Shown in pieces: positions 11,961 to 41,955 of a DNA stretch of 55,227 nucleotides. The position numbers were made by a program, and so were the translations under genes. The notes beneath the pieces were generated by a model. That model saw nothing but the letters and a program-made list of their open reading frames with translations. It did not search any database and was not told where the DNA came from. The stretch spans positions 1 through 55,227 of the IMG/VR virus record IMGVR_UViG_2718218434_000004, one strand, 5' to 3'. Position 1 is the stretch's first letter. The number at the start of each line of letters is the position of its first letter. This DNA comes from a virus. Its lineage: Duplodnaviria; Heunggongvirae; Uroviricota; Caudoviricetes.

Positions 11961-13175
11961 TCATGCGTGTTTTTCAAACACCATATGCACCACATTTCCG
12001 CCATGCTCGAGAGAATCCATATAGTCGGCATACCATTGAAGCATCTCCCGCCTTCCATCCAGATATTGCGCATGGTTGTATGTGCCACGAATTGAGTTCT
12101 TATCAACGTGAGCGAGCTGAGTTTCTATCCACGCAGTGTTATAGCCCTGCTCATGCAAAATCGTACTCATAGTGTGCCGGAACCCATGACCAGTTACACG
12201 TCCAGCGTAGCCAATGCGCTTAAACACTTGGTTTATGCTGGCCTCACTCATTGTTTTCCTTGGATCATTGCGCCCGGGAAACATAAGAGGGTAATTGCCT
12301 GTTATTTCTCTAATCTTCCCAATAAGCGAAAGAGCCTGCTCAGACAATGGCACAATATGAGGCCGCCGCATTTTCATACGTGAAGCGGGTATCTCCCAGA
12401 TAGCCTTGTTGAAATCAATTTCATCCCATAATGCGCCACGTAGTTCGCCAGTTCGCAAGCCGGTGATAATCAGTAGACGAGCCGCCATAACAACCAATGC
12501 GCTTCCTGAGTAACTGGACAATGCCTTGAAAAAATCAGGTAATTCTTTGGCTGTAAGGAAAGGGTAATGATTAGATTCATGGCCTTGCATCGCGCTAGTA
12601 AGGTCTGGTGCAGGGTTATACTCTGCGCGACCAGTGACTATTGCATAGCGGAAAACTTCCCCGCACCGCTGCCTCACTTTTTTGGCTTTTTCTGTAGCAC
12701 CTCGCCCCTCGATGCGCCGCAGCACATTCAGAAGTTCAAGTGGTTTGATTTCGGCGATTGGTTTTTTGCCAATGTAAGGGAACACATCTTTGTTGAAGGC
12801 TTCGAGGATGTCTGAAGCATAACCAGCAGACCATTTTTTTAATTTGCTGCTGTGCCACTCAAGGGCAATATCTTTGAAGGTGTTGTTTAACTGCGTTTCC
12901 CGGGCAATCTTTTCCTCTCGTTTCGCTTCCATCGGATCGATACCACCAGCGATACCTCTTTTCGCATCTTCACGTTTTGCCCGAGCATCGGCTAGAGTAA
13001 CCTCAGGATACACACCTAGTGCCAATAGCTTCTCTTTACCAGCTACACGATATTTAAGTCGCCAGTATTTACCTCCATTAGGTTTTACCAAGAGATACAA
13101 ACCGCCACCATCGGCCAGCTTGTAAGCCTTCTCTTTTGGCTTGGCTGTGTCTATTTGACGGGCATTGAGTTTCAC
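11961..13175 (-). CDS. int: P4-family tyrosine integrase
   Basis: 404 aa; N-terminus MKLNARQIDTAKPKEKAYKLADGGGLYLLVKPNGGKYWRLKYR is the P4/CP4-57 integrase signature; C-terminal R..H..R..Y catalytic region. Confidence 0.85.
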   Translation of the reverse strand: MKLNARQIDTAKPKEKAYKLADGGGLYLLVKPNGGKYWRLKYRVAGKEKLLALGVYPEVTLADARAKREDAKRGIAGGIDPMEAKREEKIARETQLNNTFKDIALEWHSSKLKKWSAGYASDILEAFNKDVFPYIGKKPIAEIKPLELLNVLRRIEGRGATEKAKKVRQRCGEVFRYAIVTGRAEYNPAPDLTSAMQGHESNHYPFLTAKELPDFFKALSSYSGSALVVMAARLLIITGLRTGELRGALWDEIDFNKAIWEIPASRMKMRRPHIVPLSEQALSLIGKIREITGNYPLMFPGRNDPRKTMSEASINQVFKRIGYAGRVTGHGFRHTMSTILHEQGYNTAWIETQLAHVDKNSIRGTYNHAQYLDGRREMLQWYADYMDSLEHGGNVVHMVFEKHA

Positions 13176-13240
13176 TTGGGGGTACCTCCACTAAACCGAA
13201 CAGCAAATACCCCCATAAGTACCCCCATCTGACCGTAGAT

Positions 13241-13323
13241 TTTGAGGGACTTTAGTAGACGTCAAAAGACGAACGGGGCTTTAATACGCGGATTATAATG
13301 GGTTTTGAAAGACTTTAGTAGAC
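13241..13323. repeat. two 20-bp direct repeats TTTGA(G/A)(G/A)GACTTTAGTAGAC (13241-13260, 13304-13323); putative integrase arm sites
   Basis: Near-identical repeats 63 bp apart between the integrase start and the att core. Confidence 0.5.
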
Positions 13324-13338
13324 TTGGGGAGATGTTTG

Positions 13339-13386
13339 AATGGTGCCGATAATAGGAGTCGAACCTACGACCTTCGCATTACGAAT
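13339..13386. repeat. att site: 48-bp direct repeat of the thrW 3' end (junction between element A and prophage B)
   Basis: Identical to 53782-53829; sequence diverges immediately outside both copies. Confidence 0.85.
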
Positions 13387-13779
13387 TATAAGAATCCACT
13401 TCTAATTCAAAGCATTACCCCATCAACACTGCGCTCACACGTCCCACCACATCAAAACATGTAAAGCCTTGCAAGCCATTGCGAGGCCTTATGTGTCTCA
13501 GTTTTGTCCCACCTTGTATTACGACTTGCATAGCCAATGAAGATAAACGTGACGACAAACGGCGCAGCAGTCTTCTTTTCCTTCATACTTTCCCCACCCA
13601 GCATGCATACCTTTATGCCATAACTGAAGTTTATGTCTGTTATGAGCGATGAGCGGAAGTTCACTACTTCATGACTAACATTGAAGTGTCCTAAGCAACG
13701 GGGAGCAGCTCAAGGAGTGTGTTAGTGCAATTACACTAACACAGCTACTAAAAATAAAAATACCAAAACTACAGTTATT

Positions 13780-15246
13780 CTATGCGCCTGGATTGGGTTC
13801 GATCATACTCAGCGTTTTTGCTATTTTCTTAATCTCATCATCATTATCCAAAAAAGAGGCGTCTTTTATTACCACAGTACGCTCTTCTTGTAATAGCTCA
13901 CCTATTTTTTCTTCTATAAAATCTAAGGTTGGCATTATAATCTGGATGTCTCGAGAAAAAGTAGTTTTTGCATCTTCTATACTGTTGAATCCATTATGTA
14001 TATGAGTGAATATTCTCTTTTTAAACTGTATGTCTTCTGGATTTCCCACTAACTGACTGAAATCTCCTTTCATAACTCTTTCGCTTGTTTCAAAGAGCTG
14101 TATTGCTATCGAGTCGATTAATTCCTTTTTGGACAGAGATGCTTGTTCATAAAATTTGGTGACTAACTCTGTTGGCAACTTTCTTGAGACGACTTTAATG
14201 GACAGTCTCTGAAATAGGTAAGGTGCCACCACGCCCACACTGAAAGGGTGAATCCTCCCTGGATTTAATAATTTTATTGTGACGTTTTCAAAAACTAGCT
14301 CATTGATTTTACTATTTATGAATTCCATTAAATACTTATCTAATGATAATGTTACCGACGCAACCGCTTCTATCACTTGTTTAAATGGCTCGCCTTTCAA
14401 GGATTTAAAAAACTCTTTGTTATAACCAAAGAAATCCACAAAACCTAAATTTATTCGATTTTCTTCTTTAGTATTTGAAATGCGAATTTGAAGTTGTTTT
14501 AAGTCTTCATCGGTCAAGTATTTTAAACCATAGTCATCAAGCGCGTTACGTATAACTTTATCTGCAGATTCTAAGTCGATTACAGTTTTTACATTAAAAA
14601 ACAATGATAACAATGAATCATACTTATGAACTCGCAAGGTTAAATCTGTTGCATTTGATGCGGTTACATTTATCCGTCTCAAAAGATCAATAACTTTACT
14701 AATTGGTAGGCTGTTTTCAAAAATTTTGAATGACTCGTATTCAGATACAACATCTTTTATATACTTACTGATAGTATCAGACTTTATTTCCACCTCAACT
14801 TCGGTTGAGTAAGAATGAATTAGTGAGTTTGTAGTTTCAGCGATGTCATTTGATACATACAACTTATATTCGAAACAATCAGGAGCGGGAAGCAAACTAT
14901 TATCAATAATGGAAAACAATAAAAATTTAATTATTTCTCTTAATGCTTGCGGTCTAGTTATTCTACCTTGCATTTTTTTACATTGTATTAAACCACTTAC
15001 AACACCGTTATGGTATAGCACGCAGTCGCGTCCTCTTTCAGAAACTCCTTGCATTAAAGATATTGAGGATATATTTTTATGCTTTCCATCTTCAATTTCG
15101 TTCTTTACTAACAAATAACATAGCAACTCAAATTCTCGATCACCTAATTCTGAAAAGGGAAGCAATCCGATACCAGAATCTATAGTCCATGGTCTATATC
15201 CTGATTGAGCCTCGATATTAATTTGTTCGTCACTGATTTTTTTCAC
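13780..15246 (-). CDS. Mrr-cat-like PD-(D/E)xK nuclease domain fused to a roughly 380-aa uncharacterised domain (candidate restriction/defence protein)
   Basis: AT-rich 488-aa ORF; N-terminal FELLCYLL...GVSERGRDCVLY...GLIQCKK matches the Mrr catalytic-core pattern. Confidence 0.6.
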   Translation of the reverse strand: MKKISDEQINIEAQSGYRPWTIDSGIGLLPFSELGDREFELLCYLLVKNEIEDGKHKNISSISLMQGVSERGRDCVLYHNGVVSGLIQCKKMQGRITRPQALREIIKFLLFSIIDNSLLPAPDCFEYKLYVSNDIAETTNSLIHSYSTEVEVEIKSDTISKYIKDVVSEYESFKIFENSLPISKVIDLLRRINVTASNATDLTLRVHKYDSLLSLFFNVKTVIDLESADKVIRNALDDYGLKYLTDEDLKQLQIRISNTKEENRINLGFVDFFGYNKEFFKSLKGEPFKQVIEAVASVTLSLDKYLMEFINSKINELVFENVTIKLLNPGRIHPFSVGVVAPYLFQRLSIKVVSRKLPTELVTKFYEQASLSKKELIDSIAIQLFETSERVMKGDFSQLVGNPEDIQFKKRIFTHIHNGFNSIEDAKTTFSRDIQIIMPTLDFIEEKIGELLQEERTVVIKDASFLDNDDEIKKIAKTLSMIEPNPGA

Positions 15247-15561
15247 TTAAATCTCCTTCTAATCTTATTGACCTACTCCCTACATTGTAACAGGGGATGA
15301 TGATAAGGTGTATCTTTCGAGCTATAAGCACGATAAATAAGTGATTAAAAATGACTCTTTAAACTATTTTAATTTAAAAAATTAATTGTTAGTTCTAATT
15401 ATGGTATGAGGGCATTTTCGGCATAGTTCTAACCATATACTTTGGTAAAAATGACTGTTACGGAACAGACCATAGTAATGCCTGCTATTGGCACGGAGCG
15501 GGCTGCCTGAGCGCCGTGGGGTCTGCAAACGGTAAGCATACCGATAACTATACGCTTGGCC

Positions 15562-15981
15562 TTAGTAACTTTTGCTCCCCTCAATAAATCCGCCATCTTT
15601 TATCGGACTGCAATGTCCTTCTTCATCAATCAGTTGCTCGTCTTTCAGGTAGGTATATCGATAGATAATTGAGCCATTATCCATCTCACCATTGGTTCGT
15701 TTCATTAGGAGAGTAAAATGTAACGGGCTGTCCCTATATCGAGCTATTCCATGAATATTGGCAAGTACCTCATATTGACGCTCAGGTGATAACCCTTTAA
15801 ATACATCGAGATATCCATGGAATGTTCCATAGAGTGAAGAAGTGTAGATCAGTCGCTGCTCTGGACCAGTAACTTTAAGAGTAATTTGTTCACCCGTATT
15901 ACAGGTTAGCTTGGCGGGAAATGTCTCAGCCTGAGCAGAAGAAATAGTCAAGCTTAAAATTATCAGGTAGCAATATTTCAT
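15562..15981 (-). CDS. secreted protein of unknown function
   Basis: Start at ATG 15981 (MKYCYLIILSLTISSAQA-ETF) gives a signal peptide; AT-rich, own intergenic regions. Confidence 0.5.
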   Translation of the reverse strand: MKYCYLIILSLTISSAQAETFPAKLTCNTGEQITLKVTGPEQRLIYTSSLYGTFHGYLDVFKGLSPERQYEVLANIHGIARYRDSPLHFTLLMKRTNGEMDNGSIIYRYTYLKDEQLIDEEGHCSPIKDGGFIEGSKSY

Positions 15982-16389
15982 GTGATTAGAATGTCCAAAA
16001 CTAACATGTATACTCGGGATTCTATAACTAGTTGGATGTAGACCCAAGATGTATTGGACTATTCTTCGGTTGTAGTTGGTCAAATCATATATTTTATGTC
16101 AGCAATGTCTACTTTTGGCACATAGCAGACCAGAGACACTGGCGTAAAGCCATGGAGGATCGGTGGGAGGAGGTAAAAATCCTCTCATGCAAAAAATACG
16201 CAAAATCGATAACAGTTGGAAATCATTCAATACTCGCACTATCGGAAGTTCACCAGCCAGTCGTAGCACGTTCTTGCATATGACGTGGCTACGGGTTTCG
16301 AGACCGACCCGATCATCAAACGAAACATAAAATTAGCTCACATTATGAGGAAAGGTATCTTTTTGCGCTATGTAAATTCAAAGGGTTAG

Positions 16390-17259
<870 letters not shown>

Positions 17260-22701: not shown

Positions 22702-23780
22702 CAGAACGGGTCCTCCTGTACTCTGGTTTTTTTCTTTTTCCGCGCGCCGGGGGCTTCGGGTTCAGGCAGATAAGCATCAGGTGGGCCGACACGGATTTCC
22801 GTCAGGGTGCCATTCTGGTCCTGAGTAAACGTGACTTCCGAGACAAGCAGTTCGGTATTGTCGAAACCACAGACCGGATCGAAGACAATCACCCGCTGGT
22901 TGGGCTGCCACAGCGTACCGTTACCCTGTCGCCAGCCCTGCACCACATAGGTGGTTTCATCCGTCCGCGCCGCCCGTTGTCGGGCTTCAAAGTCAGCACG
23001 CGCAATACAGCCTGCCCCCGTAGCCTGCCCTGTCTGCCTGATATACATCGGACGGTAACGGGCAATAAATGCATCCTCTGTGCGGGCCCGCAGCACGGTG
23101 GTGGTGGCCTCACCGAAATCATCGTCGTTTCCGGCACGCTGCCCCGCCACCTGGTAAACTGAAAACCGCTCCCGGATACTCTTCTCCGTATCACAGGAAA
23201 GGATGTTTTCCCCAAGTACCAGCGCGGTATGTGCCCGCGTTGAGCCAATACCACCAATCACCAGCCTGCCGTGCGGGTCGTCATAAGCCAGCGCCTGCTG
23301 CTGACCGAGTATTTTGTTGATCACCTCGATCACCGTTTCACCGTGATCAGGCTGGACATCCGGAATAACACCCGACGGCGCATCGCTGTTCACCACCTCA
23401 ATGCCGAAAGGCGCAGCAAGCGCCTGCGCAATCTGTACCAGCGATCGTCCGTTAAACTGTGTCGGTTCGGCTGCACAGTCAATCAGGTCAGCAGTCAGAC
23501 TACGTCCGGCAATACCGGTGCTGACCGAACGGGCATCGTAACGAACGGGGGTCGCCTCCACCCAGCCGGTGATCACCAGCTCATCACCAATCAGCACTTC
23601 CACTTTTGAACCATTTTTAATGCGCGGCTGAAGCGTGGTGATACCCTCATCTCCCGGCCACTGGCGGGTGATCTCCACGCTGAAATCCCGCGCCAGCCGT
23701 TCAATACCGGCACCGATGCGCACCGATGTCCAGCCATTCCACTCCCGGCCATTTACCCGTAGCGTGACATTGTCGTTCAT
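22701..23780 (-). CDS. baseplate hub / Mu P-like tail protein (gp44)
   Basis: 359-aa ORF directly downstream of the DNA circulation gene. Confidence 0.5.
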   Translation of the reverse strand: MNDNVTLRVNGREWNGWTSVRIGAGIERLARDFSVEITRQWPGDEGITTLQPRIKNGSKVEVLIGDELVITGWVEATPVRYDARSVSTGIAGRSLTADLIDCAAEPTQFNGRSLVQIAQALAAPFGIEVVNSDAPSGVIPDVQPDHGETVIEVINKILGQQQALAYDDPHGRLVIGGIGSTRAHTALVLGENILSCDTEKSIRERFSVYQVAGQRAGNDDDFGEATTTVLRARTEDAFIARYRPMYIRQTGQATGAGCIARADFEARQRAARTDETTYVVQGWRQGNGTLWQPNQRVIVFDPVCGFDNTELLVSEVTFTQDQNGTLTEIRVGPPDAYLPEPEAPGARKKKKTRVQEDPF

Positions 23781-25111
23781 TGCACTGGCACCTTCAGAGG
23801 GATTACCGGCACAAAGCCGGGATGCGTAATGGCATTACGCCGGATAATGTCCGCGTCACGCGCCGCGTTATCAAACCAGGTCGCCGCCAGCACCAGCGCG
23901 GGTAAAACCTCATCCGGCGTGCGCTGAATGATCCGAGCAGACTGTTCAAGGCGCGTGTTGATATCCGCATTCAGATCTGCTTTCACCCGGCGCAGAGCCA
24001 GAAACAGCGCATCACTGGTTGTACGGGACAACTCCTTATCAATTGCCGTATTCAGTGTGTCGCGAATGTCGGTCAGTTCTTCCCACGTTGGCAGGTCAAC
24101 CGTGTTTTTCACCGCCGGTGCATTGTTCAGCACCGGATGCGTGACGGCAGGCCAGCCGGAGCTCTGCGCGGGTGTTGTTGACTGCCCCACTGCGGCATTC
24201 TGCATCACCGCAGAAGTTGTTGGCGCAGGCAATCGGGTAACGGCATACGCCGCTTCGCTGATTGCAGTCGTACGAAGGGTGCTGGCAACCATGTTACGCT
24301 GCTGCGTCGCTGTGGCGGTGGTTTTACTGTCCGTTTTCCAGACGCCGCGCGGTTGCAAATCGCTGCCGAGGCTGACACCAGAAAGCGTTTTGATCATGGT
24401 GACCAGGTCGCTGGCGTTACCATAAAGGCGTTTCCCGGTACGCCACATTTTCTGCACCTGCTCAACGAAATTTTTGCCTGACGATGGCGGCGGCAGAAGT
24501 ACCGAGATATCCCCCTGCAACAGCCTGGCGGCATCCGATACGGCAGAATCCACCACTTTCATCGCATCAGAAACATACCCCAGCATTATGCTGGCATTAC
24601 CGATAACGTCGTTCTGCACGAAATCCGCCACACCATCGATACTGAAACCGCTGAAGCTGTCACTGATGCAGTCATCCAGTGCAGAACAGGATGACATCAG
24701 CGTCAGCGCCGTCGCCGCACCTGATGTGGGGTAAGAGAGTTCTCCTGCTTCGACAAACTTCAGGTCAAAGCGGACAATACGCCCTTCACTTTTCGATGTG
24801 CTGACCCGAACTTCCCCGTCAACACAGACTTTCAGCTCACCATATGTCGGGTGGACAAGCGTGCCGGGACCGGGTTTATTCAGCGCTTCAATCAGGCGAT
24901 CGCGCTGGTCAAAGCAGTCATCTCCCACCACATAAGCTGTGATGGACGGGCGGAAAGTGACTTTTCCCAGATCTTCGGTATAGGGCTTGTCGCGGTTCGG
25001 GTATTCATGTGTTTCCACACGGCGACCGGTTCCCGCACTTTCTTCTTCAACCTTAAACGGCACACCTCGAAATGACGCATCCTGAAGCCTGTCTTTCCAC
25101 GTCATATACAC
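23777..25111 (-). CDS. DNA circulation protein (Mu gp43-like)
   Basis: N-terminus MYMTWKDRLQDASFRGVPF matches the DNA circulation N-terminal pattern. Confidence 0.6.
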   Translation of the reverse strand: MYMTWKDRLQDASFRGVPFKVEEESAGTGRRVETHEYPNRDKPYTEDLGKVTFRPSITAYVVGDDCFDQRDRLIEALNKPGPGTLVHPTYGELKVCVDGEVRVSTSKSEGRIVRFDLKFVEAGELSYPTSGAATALTLMSSCSALDDCISDSFSGFSIDGVADFVQNDVIGNASIMLGYVSDAMKVVDSAVSDAARLLQGDISVLLPPPSSGKNFVEQVQKMWRTGKRLYGNASDLVTMIKTLSGVSLGSDLQPRGVWKTDSKTTATATQQRNMVASTLRTTAISEAAYAVTRLPAPTTSAVMQNAAVGQSTTPAQSSGWPAVTHPVLNNAPAVKNTVDLPTWEELTDIRDTLNTAIDKELSRTTSDALFLALRRVKADLNADINTRLEQSARIIQRTPDEVLPALVLAATWFDNAARDADIIRRNAITHPGFVPVIPLKVPVQ

Positions 25112-25166: not shown

Positions 25167-25697
25167 TTAGCGAGTCAGAAACAACGAATCTTTATACTTT
25201 TGCTGTTGTTCATTTAAATACTTAGCTGTTTCATCGCTGGCAAATGGAAATATTACCGTATTTTTAGGCATGGTAATTTCTTTTTTGTCCAGCGTCAGAG
25301 TAAACATAGGAACATACTGAGCAGAGTAACGCACCGCAGAAACGAGCTCTAGTTTAGACTCTTCAATAACACTTAAATTATCCAGGCTAACTTTCTCTTC
25401 ATCTTTTTTCTTTGACGCATTTAAAGTTTTTATTACTTTATTTAATTTCTCCTGAAAATCCTCCTTAAAGTTTTCAGGATTGCCGTCGACAACAAGAATC
25501 TGTTCACCCTGATTATCTGGAAAAATAATCTTTGCACTTATCAATTTATTTTCTTTATAAACATCACCAAGTTTTATGGCTCCTCCAGATAACTGAATAA
25601 TATGTTCATCTTTAAAGGAGATGTTGCCAGAGATTATGAGAGATGAAAAAATAGCCGCTGCTCCAAGAATTACACTTGCTGTGATATAGCCTTTCAT
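25167..25697 (-). CDS. moron: membrane-anchored or secreted 176-aa protein of unknown function
   Basis: AT-rich ORF inserted between tape measure and DNA circulation genes; hydrophobic N-terminus MKGYITASVILGAAAIFSSLIISG. Confidence 0.55.
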   Translation of the reverse strand: MKGYITASVILGAAAIFSSLIISGNISFKDEHIIQLSGGAIKLGDVYKENKLISAKIIFPDNQGEQILVVDGNPENFKEDFQEKLNKVIKTLNASKKKDEEKVSLDNLSVIEESKLELVSAVRYSAQYVPMFTLTLDKKEITMPKNTVIFPFASDETAKYLNEQQQKYKDSLFLTR

Positions 25698-25788: not shown

Positions 25789-27621
25789 CTACCAAAATCG
25801 GGTATAGCCAACATCGTGATTTATATCAATGCCACTGGAGCGTGTTTCCGTAACCCGCATATCTGGTGGCATATTTATAAATGATACCTTGATCTCACCA
25901 TCAACTTTTGGCGCGGTAGCTTTATTAATCATGAAGGGATTCGAGCCTGTGGCATCGGAGGCGTTGTTTGCCTGAGCCGGATCCACCGCCGGATAAGGAG
26001 TGTATCCCCGTGCCGGTATTCCCGTCCCATAAGCATCATAAGCACCCGCGCCCCACTGCGCCGAGTTAATGGCATCGACCGTGTCACCGGAACTGTCGGT
26101 AAACCATTCAATAATCGGCTTCAGCTTATCCCACATATCCTGAAACCACTTAACAACCGGTCCCCAGTTATTGATCACCATCCCCAGCGGCGACCAGGCA
26201 AAAACCTTCTTCAGAAGTTCCCAGCCAGCCTCAAAATAAGGACTAATGGTTTCCCAGAGTTTCTTAAAATAAGGTCCGACAACATCCCAGTTAGTGATAA
26301 TTAATCCCGCAGCCAGGGCAATCGCCGTCGCAATCATGCCAATCGGCGTCATCGACATGATCCTGCTGACGATACTGATGGCACTGCCCACGCCCATCAA
26401 TCCCAGTTTCAGAATCGCAAGACCGGCAGCAAGCCCGACGACGCCGCGAATAACCCGGGGATTTTCATCCGCAAACTTCGTGAATTTCTCCCCCAACTCC
26501 CCCAGCCATTGCGTGATATTTTTGGCGTCACCAGAAAATGCGCCGCCAATAGCCGCAAGGCCGTTAGTTGCGGTCCCCGTCATTGCCTCCCACAGGTTGG
26601 ACAGCGTACCAAGCTGGGCCTGAACACGTTTATTCAGGCTGGCCTGTTTATTCATCTTCTGCTGGATCTGATCGTAGCCATCCTTTCCTTTATCGATTAG
26701 TGCATTGACCACCTGAAGGGTTTCGGCATCATCACCAAATATTGCCTTAAGTACACCTGTTCGCTTAACGTCGGTCAGTTTTCGCAGCTTTGCCAGTTGC
26801 CTGAACATGTTATCAAGACCGCCAAAACTTCCTTTGCCGTCAGTAAAATCGAGCTGTACCCCGAGTTTCTGGCGGGCCATGATTTTATTGACGTCCCTGA
26901 TTTTCTTAACGCTTAATCCGGACTGGATAACTTTTCGCAGGGCATTACCTGCCGACTCCCCGTTCATCCCCATCTGATCCATCATGACGCTGATGGGGGC
27001 AAGGCTCTGTGCAGCCTGAAGACCGTCCTTGTTCACCATCTTCAGAACAGAACTGGTTTTAGTGAAGAAGGACAACATGTTGGTATCGTCAACGCCCAGA
27101 TAAAACGCCTTCTGGATAGTGTCGAACAGCCCCATCATGTCTTCTGACGCCGTTCCGGTAGCATCCTGCATCTTTGCAGCAAACTCAGCAGCCGCTTCCG
27201 GTGTTTTTTTCAGTTGTACCGCAAGATAAGCTGTCGCTTTACCCACACCGCCAAGAATGTTTTCTGCCGGGATCCCCTGACGCACCAGCATCTGCATCAT
27301 GTTCTGGAAATCAGCCGTTGTACCGGGTAGCTGGTTACCCAGGCCAATAGCCAGTTTATTGATGTCCTGAAAGCTCTTTCCAACCTCGCCATTCGCATCC
27401 ATCATGGCGACTTTCAGCCCGGTGGCGGCGTTTTCCTGATCGGCATAAGATTTCAGGGAAAGCGTCAGACCCGCTGCCAGTCCGCCACCAAGCGCCAGCC
27501 CACCCTGTGACGCTTCTTCCGCCTGGCGTTTAAATCCCCGGATTTTCTTTTGCATTTTCGACAGCGCGGGAGAAAGCCTGTCGACACCGGTGATCAACGC
27601 CTTAAGCTCAAATTCAGCCAT
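25789..27621 (-). CDS. tail tape measure protein
   Basis: 610-aa helical ORF with Gly-rich hydrophobic segments, placed after the chaperone pair. Confidence 0.75.
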   Translation of the reverse strand: MAEFELKALITGVDRLSPALSKMQKKIRGFKRQAEEASQGGLALGGGLAAGLTLSLKSYADQENAATGLKVAMMDANGEVGKSFQDINKLAIGLGNQLPGTTADFQNMMQMLVRQGIPAENILGGVGKATAYLAVQLKKTPEAAAEFAAKMQDATGTASEDMMGLFDTIQKAFYLGVDDTNMLSFFTKTSSVLKMVNKDGLQAAQSLAPISVMMDQMGMNGESAGNALRKVIQSGLSVKKIRDVNKIMARQKLGVQLDFTDGKGSFGGLDNMFRQLAKLRKLTDVKRTGVLKAIFGDDAETLQVVNALIDKGKDGYDQIQQKMNKQASLNKRVQAQLGTLSNLWEAMTGTATNGLAAIGGAFSGDAKNITQWLGELGEKFTKFADENPRVIRGVVGLAAGLAILKLGLMGVGSAISIVSRIMSMTPIGMIATAIALAAGLIITNWDVVGPYFKKLWETISPYFEAGWELLKKVFAWSPLGMVINNWGPVVKWFQDMWDKLKPIIEWFTDSSGDTVDAINSAQWGAGAYDAYGTGIPARGYTPYPAVDPAQANNASDATGSNPFMINKATAPKVDGEIKVSFINMPPDMRVTETRSSGIDINHDVGYTRFW

Positions 27622-37701: not shown

Positions 37702-38052
37702 TCACTTGAGCCGCTCGCGCGCGGTCTTCGCTGCGTGACACGACCAGCACAGGCTCTCAAGGTTGCTGTCTTCATCAGTACCGCCGTGGGCCTTCGCCTT
37801 GATGTGGTCAACGGTTGTGGCTGCGACAGCACGTCCAGTACGCAGGCAGTTCTGACACAGATGATTATCACGCTTCAGGATGCGGGCGCGTTTGATATCC
37901 CACTTGCTGCCGTAGCCACGCTCATGGCGACTCTTACCCTGCTGATGCTGCTGCCAGCCCTCATTGCGATGCTGCTCACAGTAGCCTGAACGGTCCGTAG
38001 TCGTGCCAGGACAACCACGTTTGCGACATGCGCGGGGTATTAAAGTTGGCAT
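37702..38052 (-). CDS. HNH endonuclease (packaging-associated)
   Basis: 116 aa with Cys pairs and the HNH His/Asn motif; directly upstream of the terminase genes. Confidence 0.8.
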   Translation of the reverse strand: MPTLIPRACRKRGCPGTTTDRSGYCEQHRNEGWQQHQQGKSRHERGYGSKWDIKRARILKRDNHLCQNCLRTGRAVAATTVDHIKAKAHGGTDEDSNLESLCWSCHAAKTARERLK

Positions 38053-38063
38053 ACATGCTCCGC

Positions 38064-38094
38064 AAAAACACCAGCCAAAGCTGGTGTTTTTTTA
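38064..38094. terminator. bidirectional rho-independent terminator
   Basis: ACACCAGC-caaa-GCTGGTGT flanked by an A-run and a T-run. Confidence 0.5.
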
Positions 38095-38154
38095 TTCTTA
38101 TGTAACTCTAAAATTTAGAGATAACATGTAGGAATGATTTGATAATTTGTAAGA

Positions 38155-38718
38155 CTACCCAAATCGAATAGCGCCACCCAACATTTCATTTTTGATTTTT
38201 GCCCTCGAATTTATCCTCTGGCATACATCATTATTATCCTTCATCCGCTCAACCCACTTAACTACCGCATCGCAGATATCATTAGATAAATTAATAACAC
38301 TTAACTGAAGCACACCGTTAAACATATTCATGTGCGCAGAAGAGTGCGTAAGTTGAATTTTTTGTAACTTAGTACTATCAGATGCCTCATGCAAAAATGC
38401 ATTTCTTAAAGCCCAGTAGCTTTCATGGTCAAAGCTTACCAATGGTTTTTTTGTTTTTAAATCATCGATTAAGTATTGAGGCATTTTATCTAATTGCTCG
38501 GGAAAGTTAGCCAAAAACGTCTCATAAAGATTATCTGCAAAATATTTATCCTTAAGGTTATCCTTAAACCATCTTTTTGCTCTTGGCCCGTTCCGCTCTT
38601 CAGGAGTTTCAAGTTTCCCACATATATCAGGAAGAGATAAGGCAATAAACAATGCAGCCTCATAATTTTCATCTAATAAAGATTTTCTTACTGACTCAAC
38701 AAATTCAAGCATTTGCAT
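38155..38718 (-). CDS. HEPN-motif protein (candidate abortive-infection RNase or toxin), low-GC moron
   Basis: 187-aa AT-rich ORF with R-N-x-x-x-H (ALRNAFLHEASD), the HEPN Rx4-6H pattern; followed by a terminator. Confidence 0.5.
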   Translation of the reverse strand: MQMLEFVESVRKSLLDENYEAALFIALSLPDICGKLETPEERNGPRAKRWFKDNLKDKYFADNLYETFLANFPEQLDKMPQYLIDDLKTKKPLVSFDHESYWALRNAFLHEASDSTKLQKIQLTHSSAHMNMFNGVLQLSVINLSNDICDAVVKWVERMKDNNDVCQRINSRAKIKNEMLGGAIRFG

Positions 38719-38792
38719 TTACTCCCCCAGTTAATTAACTAGGGAAGAATATCATAAGCACATAATTAAAACCTGCTGTAGCTCCTAATTCA

Positions 38793-39023
38793 TTAGGAGA
38801 AGGAGATACCCAAATCAACCAGCACAGCTTTCTTTTTCTCTATGCGGTGATCAAGCTCAGCAACAGCATGCGGGCGTATGGCCTCAAGAAAGGCATCGTC
38901 TTGATAGGTAGACTGGATTGTCACACCAAGCCCAGCACCACTTTCCAGTATGGTTTTCTGTCGCTGTAGCTCTTTCATCTCGTTATAGATGTAATGCGCG
39001 TTACTTAGGTTCTCTACGTTCAC
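38793..39023 (-). CDS. hypothetical small protein upstream of the HEPN-motif gene
   Basis: 76-aa ORF, same strand, 74 bp upstream of the next gene. Confidence 0.3.
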   Translation of the reverse strand: MNVENLSNAHYIYNEMKELQRQKTILESGAGLGVTIQSTYQDDAFLEAIRPHAVAELDHRIEKKKAVLVDLGISFS

Positions 39024-39440: not shown

Positions 39441-40055
39441 TCATACCAGTGCGGTTTTTGCTTTGGCGTAACGTTCACGGCGGTCTTTAATGCCGTTCTG
39501 CCCGCCGTTAATAATCTGCGTGACGCGCTCAACATCCCCCGAATATAGAAGGCAACCACGTAACGTGAAGTACCATGCCGCCGAACGGGCCGCATGTCGC
39601 TCTTGCGTCAAAAGTTCTGGCGTACTGATCAGATCAAGGTTCAGCGCTGTACCGCATTTGGTGTAGTTCTCACGACCAGTGATTTGCAGCAGGCCACGAC
39701 CGCGATATTTCCAGCCATCACCCTGACTGTTATTCCCCATGCGGTCACCATAAACCAGATTGGCTATTTGTGGCTGGTGAGCGACCTGTTTACCATCGAC
39801 ACGCCCCAGCATTTCGCACTGATACGGCGTCAGGCGCTTACCAAAGGTTTTCTTCAGCCCTTCAACCGAGTAGTTAAAATTCTCTACCAGCGAGGTAAAG
39901 CCATTGGATTCATGCCCAACTTGTGCAATGAACATGGCCTGATCATTAATCGATGTAATTCCAAACTCTTTCATTGCCGCATCAATGTGCGGAAACCAGC
40001 GCGCAGAAAGCCCGGCGCTGATACCAGCCGCCTGCTGAAATTGTGATTGGTTCAT
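39441..40055 (-). CDS. endolysin, glycoside hydrolase family 19 (chitinase-like lysozyme)
   Basis: 204-aa ORF directly downstream of the holin genes. Confidence 0.75.
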   Translation of the reverse strand: MNQSQFQQAAGISAGLSARWFPHIDAAMKEFGITSINDQAMFIAQVGHESNGFTSLVENFNYSVEGLKKTFGKRLTPYQCEMLGRVDGKQVAHQPQIANLVYGDRMGNNSQGDGWKYRGRGLLQITGRENYTKCGTALNLDLISTPELLTQERHAARSAAWYFTLRGCLLYSGDVERVTQIINGGQNGIKDRRERYAKAKTALV

Positions 40056-40336
40056 TATTGCCTCAGATGATCAACCAGACGTGCAACGTTGCCTCTGACG
40101 GACACCAGCACGGAAAGAAAAATAGTATTAGCCACGATAATGGGCCATGAGGAATGGGGATAAATCCCACAGAGATAGGCCAACGGAACAGCACTGTATG
40201 TAACAGTAATCAGCCAGGCTAAACGTGAAACCCAAGGACGATGCCGCGAATCACCACGACGATAAAACATCAGAGTAATAACAACACAAGCACATAACAG
40301 CGCATTTATAGTTGCTGTCGGGTCATTTAGCTCCAC
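40055..40336 (-). CDS. holin
   Basis: 93-aa membrane protein immediately upstream of the endolysin. Confidence 0.6.
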   Translation of the reverse strand: MELNDPTATINALLCACVVITLMFYRRGDSRHRPWVSRLAWLITVTYSAVPLAYLCGIYPHSSWPIIVANTIFLSVLVSVRGNVARLVDHLRQ

Positions 40337-40709
40337 CTGAACCTCCCCGGCGCGTTATGAGCGCCACCAGCGAGCCGATATCCTGATTATTCAGGAACGT
40401 CAGGATTTTAACGGCTAAAGCAGAGACGATTACGGCACCAATAGCATCCAGAGGTTTATCACTGTATCCGGTCAAGTTCGCCAGCTTGGAGCCAACCAAC
40501 CCAGAGCAAAGGATCCCGGCAATATATGACACGATAAAATATGCCAGTCGGCGCGATGCACTCAGATCTGCTGCTGTTGCTATGTAGAATACAGCCCCTG
40601 CAAATGCGCCAAATACAACGCCGTAATCAGTTCCGGTCAGCAGTCCATAAACACTGGCACCCGTCAGGGCACCACCAGCCAGCCCAGTACCGGAAATCGG
40701 ATCGGACAT
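40323..40709 (-). CDS. holin-like membrane protein
   Basis: 128-aa Gly/Ala-rich multi-TM ORF at the start of the lysis cassette. Confidence 0.5.
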   Translation of the reverse strand: MSDPISGTGLAGGALTGASVYGLLTGTDYGVVFGAFAGAVFYIATAADLSASRRLAYFIVSYIAGILCSGLVGSKLANLTGYSDKPLDAIGAVIVSALAVKILTFLNNQDIGSLVALITRRGGSGGAK

Positions 40710-41196: not shown

Positions 41197-41955
41197 TTAT
41201 CTCGTCACTTTTCTTAATTGCGCCTCAGCATATGCTTCTTCCTGCCAGCACTTTGTAACCAGTTTATCAATGACATCTGCATATCCTTTGTACCACTGAT
41301 AATCCGTCAGGTCTGGTACCAGCTTCTGGACATGATGCCGCGCCAGTGTGGTTGGTAAACGGCTAAACCGGTTTCCATTGCAACGCCCACAAATCTTATA
41401 AACAGGCGTGCCATGAAGCCGGGTCCTTTTTTCATCCAGGACAATACCTTTACCCTTACACCCTCTGCACGCTGTGCTGACTTCTCCCTTACCATGACAA
41501 TGCTGACATAGTTCCTTCACCCACTCCTCCTTGATAACAGATTCACCGCTTCTGGAGTGTTTCAACACTTCGCGCAATACATTATGAAATCCAGTACCAG
41601 CACAATGCTCACAGCGAGCCTTACTTGCCGCAGACCTGGAATAATCAGCAAAGGCAAAATTCACAAGGTAAGGGATGATCTGTAACCGGGTTTCTTCACT
41701 CAATTTATTCAATGTCGGGTTATCCAGTGCCATCGCGTAATTGAGCAGACCTTCAATCGCAAACTGAGGATCCTGAACACCAACTTTTGCCAGGAATAAG
41801 GCAAAACCCAGTGGTGCTTTCGACTGCACCATCCCCTGCGCAGCCATCACATCCGTAATCGTTAAACCACCAGAGCCTGTCGCCGGTGCGTCATCGCTCA
41901 ATTTTGGAGATTTTGGGGAGTAATATTTTGGTAAGGCTTCAAGGTTCATGCTCAT
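41197..41955 (-). CDS. antitermination protein Q
   Basis: CEHCAGTGF...CQHCHGKGE...CRGCKGKG zinc-binding motifs; position just before PR'/lysis. Confidence 0.75.
   Translation of the reverse strand: MSMNLEALPKYYSPKSPKLSDDAPATGSGGLTITDVMAAQGMVQSKAPLGFALFLAKVGVQDPQFAIEGLLNYAMALDNPTLNKLSEETRLQIIPYLVNFAFADYSRSAASKARCEHCAGTGFHNVLREVLKHSRSGESVIKEEWVKELCQHCHGKGEVSTACRGCKGKGIVLDEKRTRLHGTPVYKICGRCNGNRFSRLPTTLARHHVQKLVPDLTDYQWYKGYADVIDKLVTKCWQEEAYAEAQLRKVTR

What the first reader, a model, noticed from the sequence alone, without database searches (positions are those of the whole stretch)
38155..39023. HEPN-motif gene with a small upstream partner between the lysis and packaging modules
The 187-aa low-GC ORF carries R-N-x-x-x-H (ALRNAFLHEASD), the HEPN RNase signature. 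It lies with a 76-aa upstream ORF between the spanin genes and the HNH endonuclease and is followed by a strong bidirectional terminator. This arrangement is typical of toxin-antitoxin or abortive-infection morons.
Basis: partly seen in the sequence, partly recalled or inferred. Interest (0 to 1): 0.55.

Follow-up and report, generated by a model that had tools for sequence, protein, structure and literature searches.

The report
Solo HEPN nuclease gene in prophage
A foreign, low-GC single-gene cassette in the late region of an E. coli lambdoid prophage encodes a predicted HEPN-type RNase. It belongs to a large, unannotated family, has no partner gene, and is probably another stand-alone phage-exclusion nuclease rather than a toxin-antitoxin pair.

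Summary
A 187-aa ORF (38155-38718, minus strand; probably 185 aa from the ATG at 38712) has 35.6% GC against about 58% in the neighbouring HNH gene. It carries R105-N-A-F-L-H110, lies between the spanins and the HNH/terminase genes, and is followed by a 12-bp hairpin terminator.

The "small upstream partner" idea fails. The 76-aa gene belongs to the phage backbone. It occurs in 229 E. coli genomes without the HEPN gene. It is absent from the other 24 distinct homologue loci examined. Homology with related prophages breaks exactly around a one-gene cassette (about 38053-38771).

Best reading: a solo HEPN RNase moron, functionally closest to HepS, Tha or AbiV. A defence role and RNase activity remain untested. 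This is a new member of a known kind, of moderate interest.

The parts
38053..38771 (.). Low-GC replaceable cassette (moron): leader, one gene, spacer and terminator.
   Evidence: blastn against related E. coli prophages L002 and L003 loses homology exactly at 38052 (the HNH start codon) and at 38772-38797 (just past the stop of the 76-aa gene). GC is 31-36% inside the cassette and 47-58% outside it.
38155..38718 (-). Gene for a predicted solo HEPN-fold RNase (187-aa ORF; probable start at 38712, giving 185 aa, 21.4 kDa, pI 6.1).
38389..38406 (-). R105-N-A-F-L-H110, the putative catalytic Rx4H motif at the C-terminal end of core helix 3 (model helix 98-111).
   Evidence: R105 and H110 are invariant in 19, 60 and 32-sequence alignments. 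The position matches the published HEPN description, 'at the end of helix-3' (PMC3710099). The same placement is seen in the model of a 30%-identical relative: R81..H86 at the end of helix 74-85.
38626..38631 (-). P30-D31 within the LS[LI]PDICG motif in core helix 2. This is the candidate for the conserved acidic residue of the HEPN active site.
   Evidence: P30 and D31 are invariant across 60 diverse family members. Helix 2 (residues 19-37) is the most conserved segment, with 81% mean pairwise identity in the enterobacterial clade. HEPN families often carry a conserved acidic residue in helix 2 near the Rx4-6H motif (PMC3710099).
38064..38091 (.). Intrinsic-terminator hairpin closing the cassette. 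It is symmetrical, with an A-run and a T-run on either side.
   Evidence: Every enterobacterial homologue examined is also followed within about 20-70 nt by a GC-rich hairpin plus T-run of unrelated sequence.
38717..38752 (-). Leader hairpin (11-bp stem) that pairs the GGGGGAG Shine-Dalgarno sequence. No convincing sigma-70 promoter lies in the 74-nt leader.
   Evidence: z -3.75. Similar SD-pairing hairpins occur in L004, L007 and L011. However, the SD pairing probability is not above the background of 47 neighbouring phage genes. The promoter scan finds nothing of 9/12 or better here.
38793..39023 (-). 76-aa gene (phrog_5415, unknown function). It is a phage backbone gene and not a partner of the HEPN gene.
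   Evidence: It is present in 238 E. coli genomes against 9 for the HEPN gene. It is kept next to other cargo or next to HNH. It is absent from all other HEPN-homologue loci. It overlaps the o-spanin ORF by 23 nt and has 46.8% GC. It has no Pfam, NCBIfam, PADLOC or PDB match.

Best explanation
The window carries a lambdoid (HK97-like packaging) E. coli prophage. A foreign one-gene cassette of about 720 bp sits in a variable cargo slot between the end of the lysis region and the HNH/terminase genes.

The cassette's product is a stand-alone HEPN-fold protein of a large, so far unannotated family.

Inferred mechanism: like other HEPN enzymes, it dimerises or forms a higher oligomer. Two Rx4H motifs (R105, H110) then face each other, helped by D31 of helix 2, and form a metal-independent endoribonuclease site.

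Because it has no cognate protein inhibitor, it is probably made in a latent form. It would be switched on by a phage-derived trigger. It would then cut tRNA, rRNA or mRNA and so stop the replication of a competing phage, by abortive infection or exclusion.

The variable insert between helices 2 and 3 is the likeliest specificity or sensor element.

Shown here: the cassette structure, the solo status, the family conservation and the predicted fold.

Inferred only: oligomerisation, RNase activity, latency, the trigger and the defence role.
For: Fold:
- The AlphaFold model has pLDDT 88.2. An independent model of a 30%-identical relative has pLDDT 90.4 and the same topology.
- The best Foldseek hit, though not significant (E 0.38), is AbiV.

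Active site:
- R105, H110, P30 and D31 are invariant in 60 sequences with 27% mean column identity.
- The motif lies at the end of helix 3, the Asp in helix 2, and a variable insert between helices 2 and 3, exactly as described for HEPN (PMC3710099).
- Regional identity is 81% in helix 2, 66% in helix 3 and 30% in the insert.

Solo cassette:
- Homology breakpoints bracket one gene.
- There is no conserved neighbour.
- All six independent enterobacterial and ECP1 contexts place the gene after the lysis genes and before the terminase. In each of the four enterobacterial downstream contexts read (window, L004-6, L007, L011) it has its own terminator.

Precedent:
- Solo HEPN defence proteins on prophages are established: HepS (PMC13043305) and Tha (PMC11087260). 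Both have an RNxxxH motif.

Association:
- One distant member sits directly after Gabija GajA/GajB.
Against: - No sequence-profile link to any curated HEPN family exists in Pfam, NCBIfam, PADLOC or PDB sequences.
- No promoter was found in the cassette. All prophage homologues are co-oriented with the late operon. Expression in the lysogen, which a defence role needs, is therefore unproven, and the gene may be a late gene.
- Most distant family members lie among housekeeping genes. At least one of the 15 non-enterobacterial loci (L028, Gabija) has a known defence neighbour. A DRT-model (RTasHel) match elsewhere in the pooled scan was not traced to a locus.
- One homologue sits next to an anti-defence gene (Acb2/Tad1 type).
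- Nothing here tests activity or toxicity.
Confidence: 0.5

Rival explanations
1. Late-expressed phage RNase. The gene would be transcribed mainly as part of the Q-antiterminated late operon. It would serve the phage's own lytic cycle, for example host RNA turnover or shut-off, interference with a co-infecting or co-induced competitor, or counter-defence, rather than protecting the lysogen.
For: - All six independent prophage or phage contexts have the gene on the late-operon strand. Other cargo in the same slot (YfbU, the L003 genes) is on the opposite strand.
- No sigma-70 promoter of 9/12 or better lies in the window's 74-nt leader.
- In L006 the upstream neighbour is an Acb2/Tad1-type anti-defence gene.
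Against: - The gene-plus-terminator architecture and foreign GC are typical of morons expressed from the repressed prophage (established knowledge: Juhala et al. 2000, not re-read here).
- L011 and L007 have passable promoters, TTGCAA-18-GATAAT and TTGAAT-16-TATTGT.
- Co-orientation is the general rule in phage genomes.
- The known prophage solo HEPN proteins are defence effectors.
Confidence: 0.2
2. HEPN-like fold without RNase function. The protein could be a nucleotide- or ligand-binding or regulatory protein. The conserved R/H/D residues would then serve binding or a different chemistry.
For: - No sequence-level match to catalytic HEPN families.
- Most of the family has R-C rather than the usual R-N/H/D after the arginine.
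- An extra near-invariant H129 and Cys33 are not standard HEPN features.
Against: Strict invariance of both R and H with fixed x4 spacing, at the canonical structural position, plus the helix-2 Asp, is the signature of the catalytic HEPN families.
Confidence: 0.12
3. Type III-like toxin-antitoxin, as reported for AbiV. A structured RNA encoded in the cassette's own leader would bind and inhibit the HEPN RNase.
For: - AbiV, the best Foldseek hit, is reported to need an upstream RNA (abiV2) with a small hairpin that inhibits it (bioRxiv 10.1101/2024.05.05.592566).
- The leader here has a stable 11-bp hairpin (z -3.75). Leaders of homologues also form hairpins.
Against: - The leader is only 74 nt.
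- The hairpins have unrelated sequences and all overlap the Shine-Dalgarno sequence, which points to translational control.
- Their pairing probability equals the background of 47 neighbouring phage genes.
- There are no tandem repeats and no Rfam match.
Confidence: 0.08
4. One reading: a type II toxin-antitoxin or abortive-infection pair. The 187-aa protein would be the HEPN toxin and the 76-aa protein its antitoxin.
For: The genes are adjacent on the same strand, 74 nt apart. HEPN toxins commonly come with small upstream antitoxins (PMC3710099).
Against: - The 76-aa gene occurs in 229 E. coli genomes without the HEPN gene.
- It lies outside the homology breakpoints of the cassette.
- It has backbone GC and overlaps the o-spanin ORF.
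- It is absent from the other 24 distinct homologue loci.
- It has no MNT or any other domain.
- The upstream neighbours of homologues are all different.
Confidence: 0.03

Closest known systems
HepS (STM14_3211), the solo HEPN abortive-infection protein of Salmonella prophage Gifsy-1 (PMC13043305; PDB 9OIJ/9OIK)
   Same: - A single HEPN-domain protein about 190-210 aa long, encoded on a lambdoid prophage.
- An RNxxxH motif near residue 100 (HepS R100-N101...H105; here R105-N106...H110).
- No conserved partner or inhibitor gene.
   Different: - No detectable sequence similarity. A profile of the family finds no PDB chain of HepS at E<=10.
[quoted passage not shown]
- The trigger (tail-tip J), tetramer state and tRNA anticodon cleavage of HepS are untested here.
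AbiV (Lactococcus), HEPN RNase with an RNA antitoxin abiV2 (bioRxiv 10.1101/2024.05.05.592566; PDB 9BJ5/9BJ7)
   Same: - A small HEPN protein of similar size used against phages.
- It has an Rx4-6H catalytic motif.
   Different: - No match to AbiV models in Pfam or NCBIfam.
- AbiV needs an upstream RNA of about 180-300 nt. Here the leader is 74 nt, with no conserved RNA element.
- AbiV is chromosomal, not a late-operon moron.
Tha-1/Tha-2 with Ith (Staphylococcus aureus prophages; PMC11087260)
   Same: - A prophage-borne HEPN RNase with an RNxxxH motif (R265NSIMH270).
- It is activated by phage structural proteins.
- It raises the same self-immunity problem for the carrying prophage.
   Different: - Tha is 301 aa with an N-terminal sensor region and a C-terminal HEPN domain. 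It is controlled by a small overlapping antisense gene (ith).
- Here the protein is HEPN only, plus inserts.
- Antisense open stretches are short and are explained by the conserved sense sequence.
HepT/MntA (HEPN-MNT) type II/VII toxin-antitoxin systems (e.g. SO_3166/SO_3165; PDB 5YEP, 7AE2)
   Different: - No adjacent minimal nucleotidyltransferase.
- No RX4HXY tyrosine (here H110-E-A).
- No match to DUF86/HepT models.
- The gene is solitary.

Membership tests
HEPN superfamily | [quoted passage not shown] | tested here: met
HEPN superfamily | Conserved Rx4-6H at the end of helix 3, often with a conserved acidic residue in helix 2. | tested here: met
   R105, H110, P30 and D31 are invariant in 60 diverse members. 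The positions match the description in PMC3710099. The distant member P0220 shows the same placement.
HEPN superfamily | Significant sequence-profile match to a curated HEPN family. | tested here: not met
   No hit in Pfam-A, NCBIfam or PADLOC for the protein or for 60 relatives. No PDB sequence hit with single-sequence or profile searches. A profile-profile search (HHpred) was not available.
HEPN superfamily | Dimer with a composite active site and metal-independent RNase activity. | not testable with these tools
HEPN-MNT or other two-gene protein toxin-antitoxin system | A cognate antitoxin gene that co-occurs with the toxin gene. | tested here: not met
   The two genes are decoupled in both directions. 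No shared neighbour exists in 16 loci. The 76-aa protein has no MNT or other domain.
HepS family | Sequence or close structural homology to HepS (9OIJ). | tested here: not met
HepS family | Self-sufficient single gene on a prophage, without a partner. | tested here: met
AbiV (type III toxin-antitoxin) | Upstream non-coding RNA antitoxin. | tested here: inconclusive
   A leader hairpin is present, but it is not conserved in sequence and not above background. There are no repeats and no Rfam match.
Moron (extra transcription unit in a late operon; Juhala et al. 2000, from my own knowledge) | Inserted between genes that are adjacent in related phages, with deviant base composition. | tested here: met
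   Breakpoints lie at 38052 and 38772-38797. In L033 the 76-aa gene is followed almost directly by HNH. GC is 35% against 47-58%.
Moron (extra transcription unit in a late operon; Juhala et al. 2000, from my own knowledge) | Own terminator. | tested here: met
   The hairpin at 38064-38091. Homologues also carry terminators.
Moron (extra transcription unit in a late operon; Juhala et al. 2000, from my own knowledge) | Own promoter. | tested here: inconclusive
   No sigma-70 match of 9/12 or better in the window's leader. Weak to moderate candidates exist in L007 and L011.

The most novel reading that the evidence does not exclude
The 187-aa protein may be the first noticed member of a large, entirely unannotated HEPN family (about 2,700 clusters at 50% identity, spread across many bacterial phyla and several temperate phages).

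The family would act as a partner-less, trigger-activated RNase.

In Enterobacterales it would have become a dedicated late-operon cargo. It would be expressed with, or alongside, the phage's own late genes. This would imply a self-immunity or timing solution different from both HepS (a silent tail-tip variant) and Tha (the antisense Ith inhibitor).
Probability: 0.35. Interest if true: 0.6.

Novelty: new member of a known kind. Interest (0 to 1): 0.4.

Why it matters
If confirmed, this adds a new, widespread HEPN family to the set of single-protein, prophage-borne RNase defences. HepS and Tha were described only in 2024-2026.

It also identifies the slot between the lysis genes and the HNH/terminase genes of HK97-like prophages as a cargo site. 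That site exchanges candidate defence and anti-defence genes.

The family is missing from Pfam, NCBIfam and PADLOC. Current defence-finding pipelines would therefore overlook it.

Its constant sense orientation inside the late operon raises a concrete, testable question. How does a prophage avoid being cut down by its own nuclease when that nuclease is co-transcribed with the structural genes?

The finding does not reveal a new principle.

Tried and rejected
Searches that found nothing:
- Sequence searches of the 187-aa protein and of 60 relatives against Pfam, NCBIfam, PADLOC and PDB sequences gave only noise.
- Foldseek against the PDB gave nothing significant. The best hit was AbiV at E 0.38.
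- Foldseek against BFVD gave only two uncharacterised viral homologues.
- The AFDB50 library was not available.
The A1 pattern gave only 14 loci, so the sample of genomic contexts is small.
- No tandem repeats and no Rfam family were found in the region.

Ideas rejected:
- The 76-aa gene as partner is rejected on co-occurrence, homology breakpoints and base composition.
- An SD-sequestering leader hairpin looked like a conserved control element in four clades. Its pairing probability is no higher than for 47 neighbouring phage genes, so it is not counted as evidence.
- An antisense small-gene inhibitor, as in Tha/Ith, is not supported. The antisense open stretches are only 40-98 codons. The single recurring one lies opposite the most conserved coding segment and is explained by that.
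- Enrichment of defence genes around distant family members is not established. The pooled PADLOC scan of 91 neighbours returned GajA/GajB (in L028) and one DRT-model match that was not traced to a locus.

Could not be done:
- I tried to obtain the HepS sequence from Gifsy-1 of LT2 (NC_010392), but that copy has no ORF with R100/H105. The paper's supplements are not held. A direct HepS comparison was therefore impossible.

Full report
**1. What is in the sequence**

The window holds a lambdoid E. coli prophage whose late genes run on the minus strand.
- From right to left around the finding the genes are:
  - a Q-type antiterminator (41197-41955; PF03589);
  - two holins and a GH19 endolysin (39441-40709);
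  - i- and o-spanins (PHROG Rz-like spanin);
  - the 76-aa ORF (38793-39023);
  - the 187-aa ORF (38155-38718);
  - a hairpin terminator (38064-38091);
  - an HNH endonuclease (37702-38052; PF01844 at 2.4e-15);
  - P27-family TerS and TerL.
- The identical 931-bp stretch occurs in 9 complete E. coli chromosomes, where all three genes are annotated 'hypothetical protein'.
- GC content is 35.6% in the 187-aa ORF and 31-35% in both flanking spacers. It is 58.4% in HNH and 46.8% in the 76-aa ORF.
- The motif R105-N-A-F-L-H110 is encoded at 38389-38406.
- The terminator has a perfect 12-bp stem flanked by an A-run and a T-run. Folding gives -20.4 kcal/mol, z -4.2.

Two refinements apply.
- All homologues start at the position of Met3, and the GGGGGAG Shine-Dalgarno sequence fits that ATG better. 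The protein is probably 185 aa.
- The motif by itself is weak evidence. Shuffles of the same protein contain Rx4H in 17% of cases and Rx4-6H in 44%.

**2. The unit is one gene, not two**

- blastn against two related E. coli prophages loses homology exactly at 38052, the first base beyond the HNH start codon. It loses homology again at 38772-38797, just past the stop codon of the 76-aa gene. The exchanged segment is about 38053-38771. It contains a 74-nt leader, the 187-aa gene, a 102-nt trailer and the terminator.
- The 76-aa gene (phrog_5415, unknown function) lies outside this segment. It has backbone-like GC and overlaps the o-spanin ORF by 23 nt.
- The 76-aa gene is found in 238 E. coli genomes. 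Only 9 of these have the 187-aa gene.
- In the relatives, the slot between the 76-aa gene and HNH holds one of three things:
  - a YfbU-family gene on the opposite strand;
  - two unrelated hypothetical genes on the opposite strand;
  - only a 77-aa ORF abutting HNH.
- Conversely, tblastn with the 76-aa protein finds nothing in any other locus that encodes a relative of the 187-aa protein.
- The upstream neighbours of the enterobacterial homologues all differ. They are a 65-aa ORF, a 45-aa ORF, an Acb2/Tad1-hairpin protein, the Rz gene itself, or an opposite-strand ORF.
- In 16 loci from Nitrospira, Methylomonas, Planctomycetota, Cyanobacteria, Firmicutes and others, an all-against-all blastp of neighbours within 3 kb finds no shared neighbour family at all.

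**3. What the protein is**

- It has no match in Pfam-A, NCBIfam or PADLOC. It falls in PHROG 18591, which has unknown function.
- Close homologues (43-89% identity, 182-186 aa) are confined to Enterobacterales.
- A profile search of 1.84 billion cluster representatives finds 2,698 clusters at E<=1e-3 and 132 at E<=1e-30. Typical members are 160-180 aa.
- None of the 120 proteins listed from a second database search has a name or a Pfam domain. A Pfam scan of 60 members gave only scattered noise. This is a sizeable family with no annotation.
- Across 60 diverse members (mean column identity 27%) the invariant residues are P30, D31, R105 and H110. Near-invariant residues are N18, A22, L23, L27, I32, C33, W50, L109, H129 and W155.
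- Most of the family reads DCYALRCAxLHEG, while the enterobacterial clade reads WxLRNAFLHEASD.

**4. Fold**

- AlphaFold2 with the family alignment gives a confident model (pLDDT 88.2, pTM 0.84). Its elements in order are:
  - helix 2-15;
  - helix 19-37, carrying P30-D31;
  - a mainly helical insert at 45-87;
  - helix 98-111, with R105 to H110 at its end;
  - a small beta insert at 120-140;
  - helix 141-159;
  - a short, lower-confidence C-terminal part.
- A second model was built for a 30%-identical, 173-aa member from Methylomonas (pLDDT 90.4). It has the same order. R81 to H86 lie at the end of helix 74-85, and a beta hairpin replaces the enterobacterial helical insert.
- This matches the published description of the HEPN domain. 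That description has a four-helix up-down bundle with frequent inserts between helices 2 and 3. [quoted passage not shown] A conserved acidic residue, when present, lies in helix 2 next to the motif (PMC3710099).
  - AF0298;
  - YutE;
  - Las1;
  - Csm6;
  - ST0689;
  - 4nqf;
  - sacsin HEPN;
  - TTHA0636;
  - AbiV;
  - TT1696;
  - LsoA;
  - the KNTase/LinB/ANT(4') C-terminal domains.
- Foldseek finds nothing significant. Its best hits are AbiV and three archaeal HEPN proteins.
- Within the enterobacterial clade, pairwise identity is 81% in helix 2, 66% in helix 3 and 30% in the insert between them. This pattern fits a fixed active site and a variable specificity region.
- I therefore accept the HEPN fold with about 85% confidence. 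The evidence is a predicted structure plus conservation, with no sequence-profile support. HHpred could not be run.

**5. Context of the homologues**

- Every enterobacterial homologue examined lies in a prophage, downstream of the lysis genes and upstream of the terminase, on the late-gene strand. This covers Enterobacter, Pantoea (two types), Citrobacter and the temperate Hendrixvirinae phage ECP1, where the gene is unannotated.
- In each of the four enterobacterial downstream contexts read (window, L004-6, L007, L011) the gene is followed within about 20-70 nt by a GC-rich hairpin plus T-run of unrelated sequence.
- Other phage copies sit next to the integrase of Acinetobacter phage TCUAN1 and in a Bacillus SPbeta-like phage.
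- This is the classical moron layout: foreign composition, insertion between backbone genes, and an own terminator.
- One element is missing. I found no convincing sigma-70 promoter in the window's 74-nt leader. The L011 and L007 leaders have moderate candidates.
- Distant chromosomal members are solitary genes, mostly between housekeeping genes such as ilvD, aconitase, chorismate synthase and clpP.
- One distant member, in Enterococcus, directly follows a Gabija pair: GajA at 1.5e-237 and GajB at 4e-203. The pooled scan also returned a DRT-model (RTasHel) match, which was not traced to a locus.
- That is too few loci to claim defence-island enrichment.

**6. Most likely mechanism**

- Shown here: a one-gene foreign cassette; a HEPN-type predicted fold; invariant R, H and D at the canonical positions; no partner gene.
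- Inferred from HEPN biology (PMC3710099; PMC13043305; PMC11087260; bioRxiv 10.1101/2024.05.05.592566):
  - the protein oligomerises so that Rx4H motifs from two subunits form a metal-independent RNase site;
  - because no inhibitor is encoded, it rests in an inactive state;
  - a phage product activates it;
  - RNA cleavage arrests translation and aborts the replication of the triggering phage.
- HepS of Gifsy-1 is the closest functional precedent. It is a solo HEPN protein on a lambdoid prophage with R100-N101...H105. It is non-toxic when over-expressed, is activated by the tail-tip protein J, and cleaves tRNA anticodon loops.
- Tha of S. aureus prophages is a second precedent.
- I put the whole chain at about 0.5. 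The fold is at about 0.85, catalytic RNase activity at about 0.7, and a defence or exclusion role at about 0.5.

**7. Rivals**

- (a) A late-expressed phage RNase serving the lytic cycle or counter-defence. The constant sense orientation, the missing promoter and the Acb2/Tad1 neighbour in L006 speak for it. I give it 0.2.
- (b) A HEPN-like protein without RNase function, at 0.12.
- (c) An AbiV-like type III arrangement with a leader RNA inhibitor.
  - AbiV needs an upstream RNA hairpin. The leader here has an 11-bp hairpin that pairs the Shine-Dalgarno sequence, with analogues in three other clades.
  - The hairpin sequences are unrelated. The pairing probability equals that of 47 neighbouring phage genes.
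  - I give it 0.08.

**8. Comparison with known systems and novelty**

- The protein works like a solo HEPN effector of the HepS, Tha or AbiV kind, but it is not a demonstrable member of any of their families.
  - No sequence or profile match to them was found.
  - HepS structures are not among the listed structural hits.
  - Its size and architecture differ from Tha.
  - It has no MNT partner and no RX4HXY tyrosine, unlike HepT.
- It is best described as a new family within the HEPN superfamily and another instance of a known kind of system.
- The points of interest are the size of the unannotated family, its absence from defence-finder libraries, and its fixed position and orientation inside the late operon. 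The last point poses a self-immunity question that differs from the HepS and Tha solutions.
- Interest is 0.4.

Noticed in passing
window 16435..17259 (+): A 274-aa ORF matches the single-gene defence system PD-T4-3 (PADLOC E 2.7e-140, full length). It has a LEM-3-like GIY-YIG domain (Pfam 2.4e-14). It is a known anti-phage gene and lies outside the prophage late region.
   Followed up: partly
window 11961..16100: A tyrosine integrase lies at 11961..13175 (-), with Arm-DNA-bind_3 and Phage_integrase domains. Next to it is a very low-GC stretch (32-38% GC at 14-16 kb). That stretch holds a 488-aa ORF (13780..15246, -) and a 173-aa ORF (15562..16083, -), both without any Pfam or PADLOC match. 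Together with PD-T4-3, this looks like an integrase-linked island carrying unknown cargo.
   Followed up: partly
window 25167..25697 (-): A 176-aa ORF has low GC (the 25-26 kb kilobase is 38.7%) and a hydrophobic N-terminal segment, with no Pfam or PADLOC hit. It is wedged between the tape-measure-like gene (25789..27621, PhageMin_Tail) and a DNA_circ_N tail gene (23777..25111). This is a second moron-like insertion in the late operon and a possible membrane-anchored exclusion protein.
   Followed up: partly
L006 1116..1415 (Logan SRR31617696 contig): A 99-aa Acb2/Tad1 hairpin-domain gene (Pfam 1.6e-16) lies directly upstream of a 51%-identical homologue of the 187-aa protein. Acb2/Tad1 proteins are known anti-CBASS/anti-Thoeris sponges. 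The post-lysis slot therefore carries anti-defence cargo as well.
   Followed up: no
L028 1896..6516 (Candidatus Enterococcus huntleyi): A distant family member (180 aa) lies 144 nt downstream of a complete Gabija pair (GajA 1.5e-237, GajB 4e-203).
   Followed up: partly
L004 5953..8558; L011-L013 5711..7796; L030 (phage ECP1) 5232..7264: In several phages the HEPN-like gene is followed by a gene of about 485 aa with weak Glycos_transf_2 similarity, plus a gene of about 200 aa. ECP1 annotates these as glycosyltransferase and glucosyltransferase, and HNH genes are often interspersed. This pair is absent from the window.
   Followed up: no
window 38717..38752 (-) and leaders in L004, L007, L011: An 11-bp hairpin sequesters the Shine-Dalgarno sequence of the 187-aa gene (z -3.75). 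Hairpins of unrelated sequence do the same in three other clades. The pairing probability is not above that of 47 neighbouring phage genes, so its significance is doubtful.
   Followed up: yes
L030 4001..4429 (Escherichia phage ECP1, NC_049926.1 8611..9039): The ECP1 homologue (32% identity over 90% of the query) is not annotated as a gene in either the GenBank or the RefSeq record.
   Followed up: no
L002, L034-L036 (E. coli prophages), slot between the 76-aa gene and HNH: The commonest alternative cargo in this slot is a 179-aa YfbU-family gene on the opposite strand. It has no PADLOC match, and its function in prophages is unknown.
   Followed up: partly
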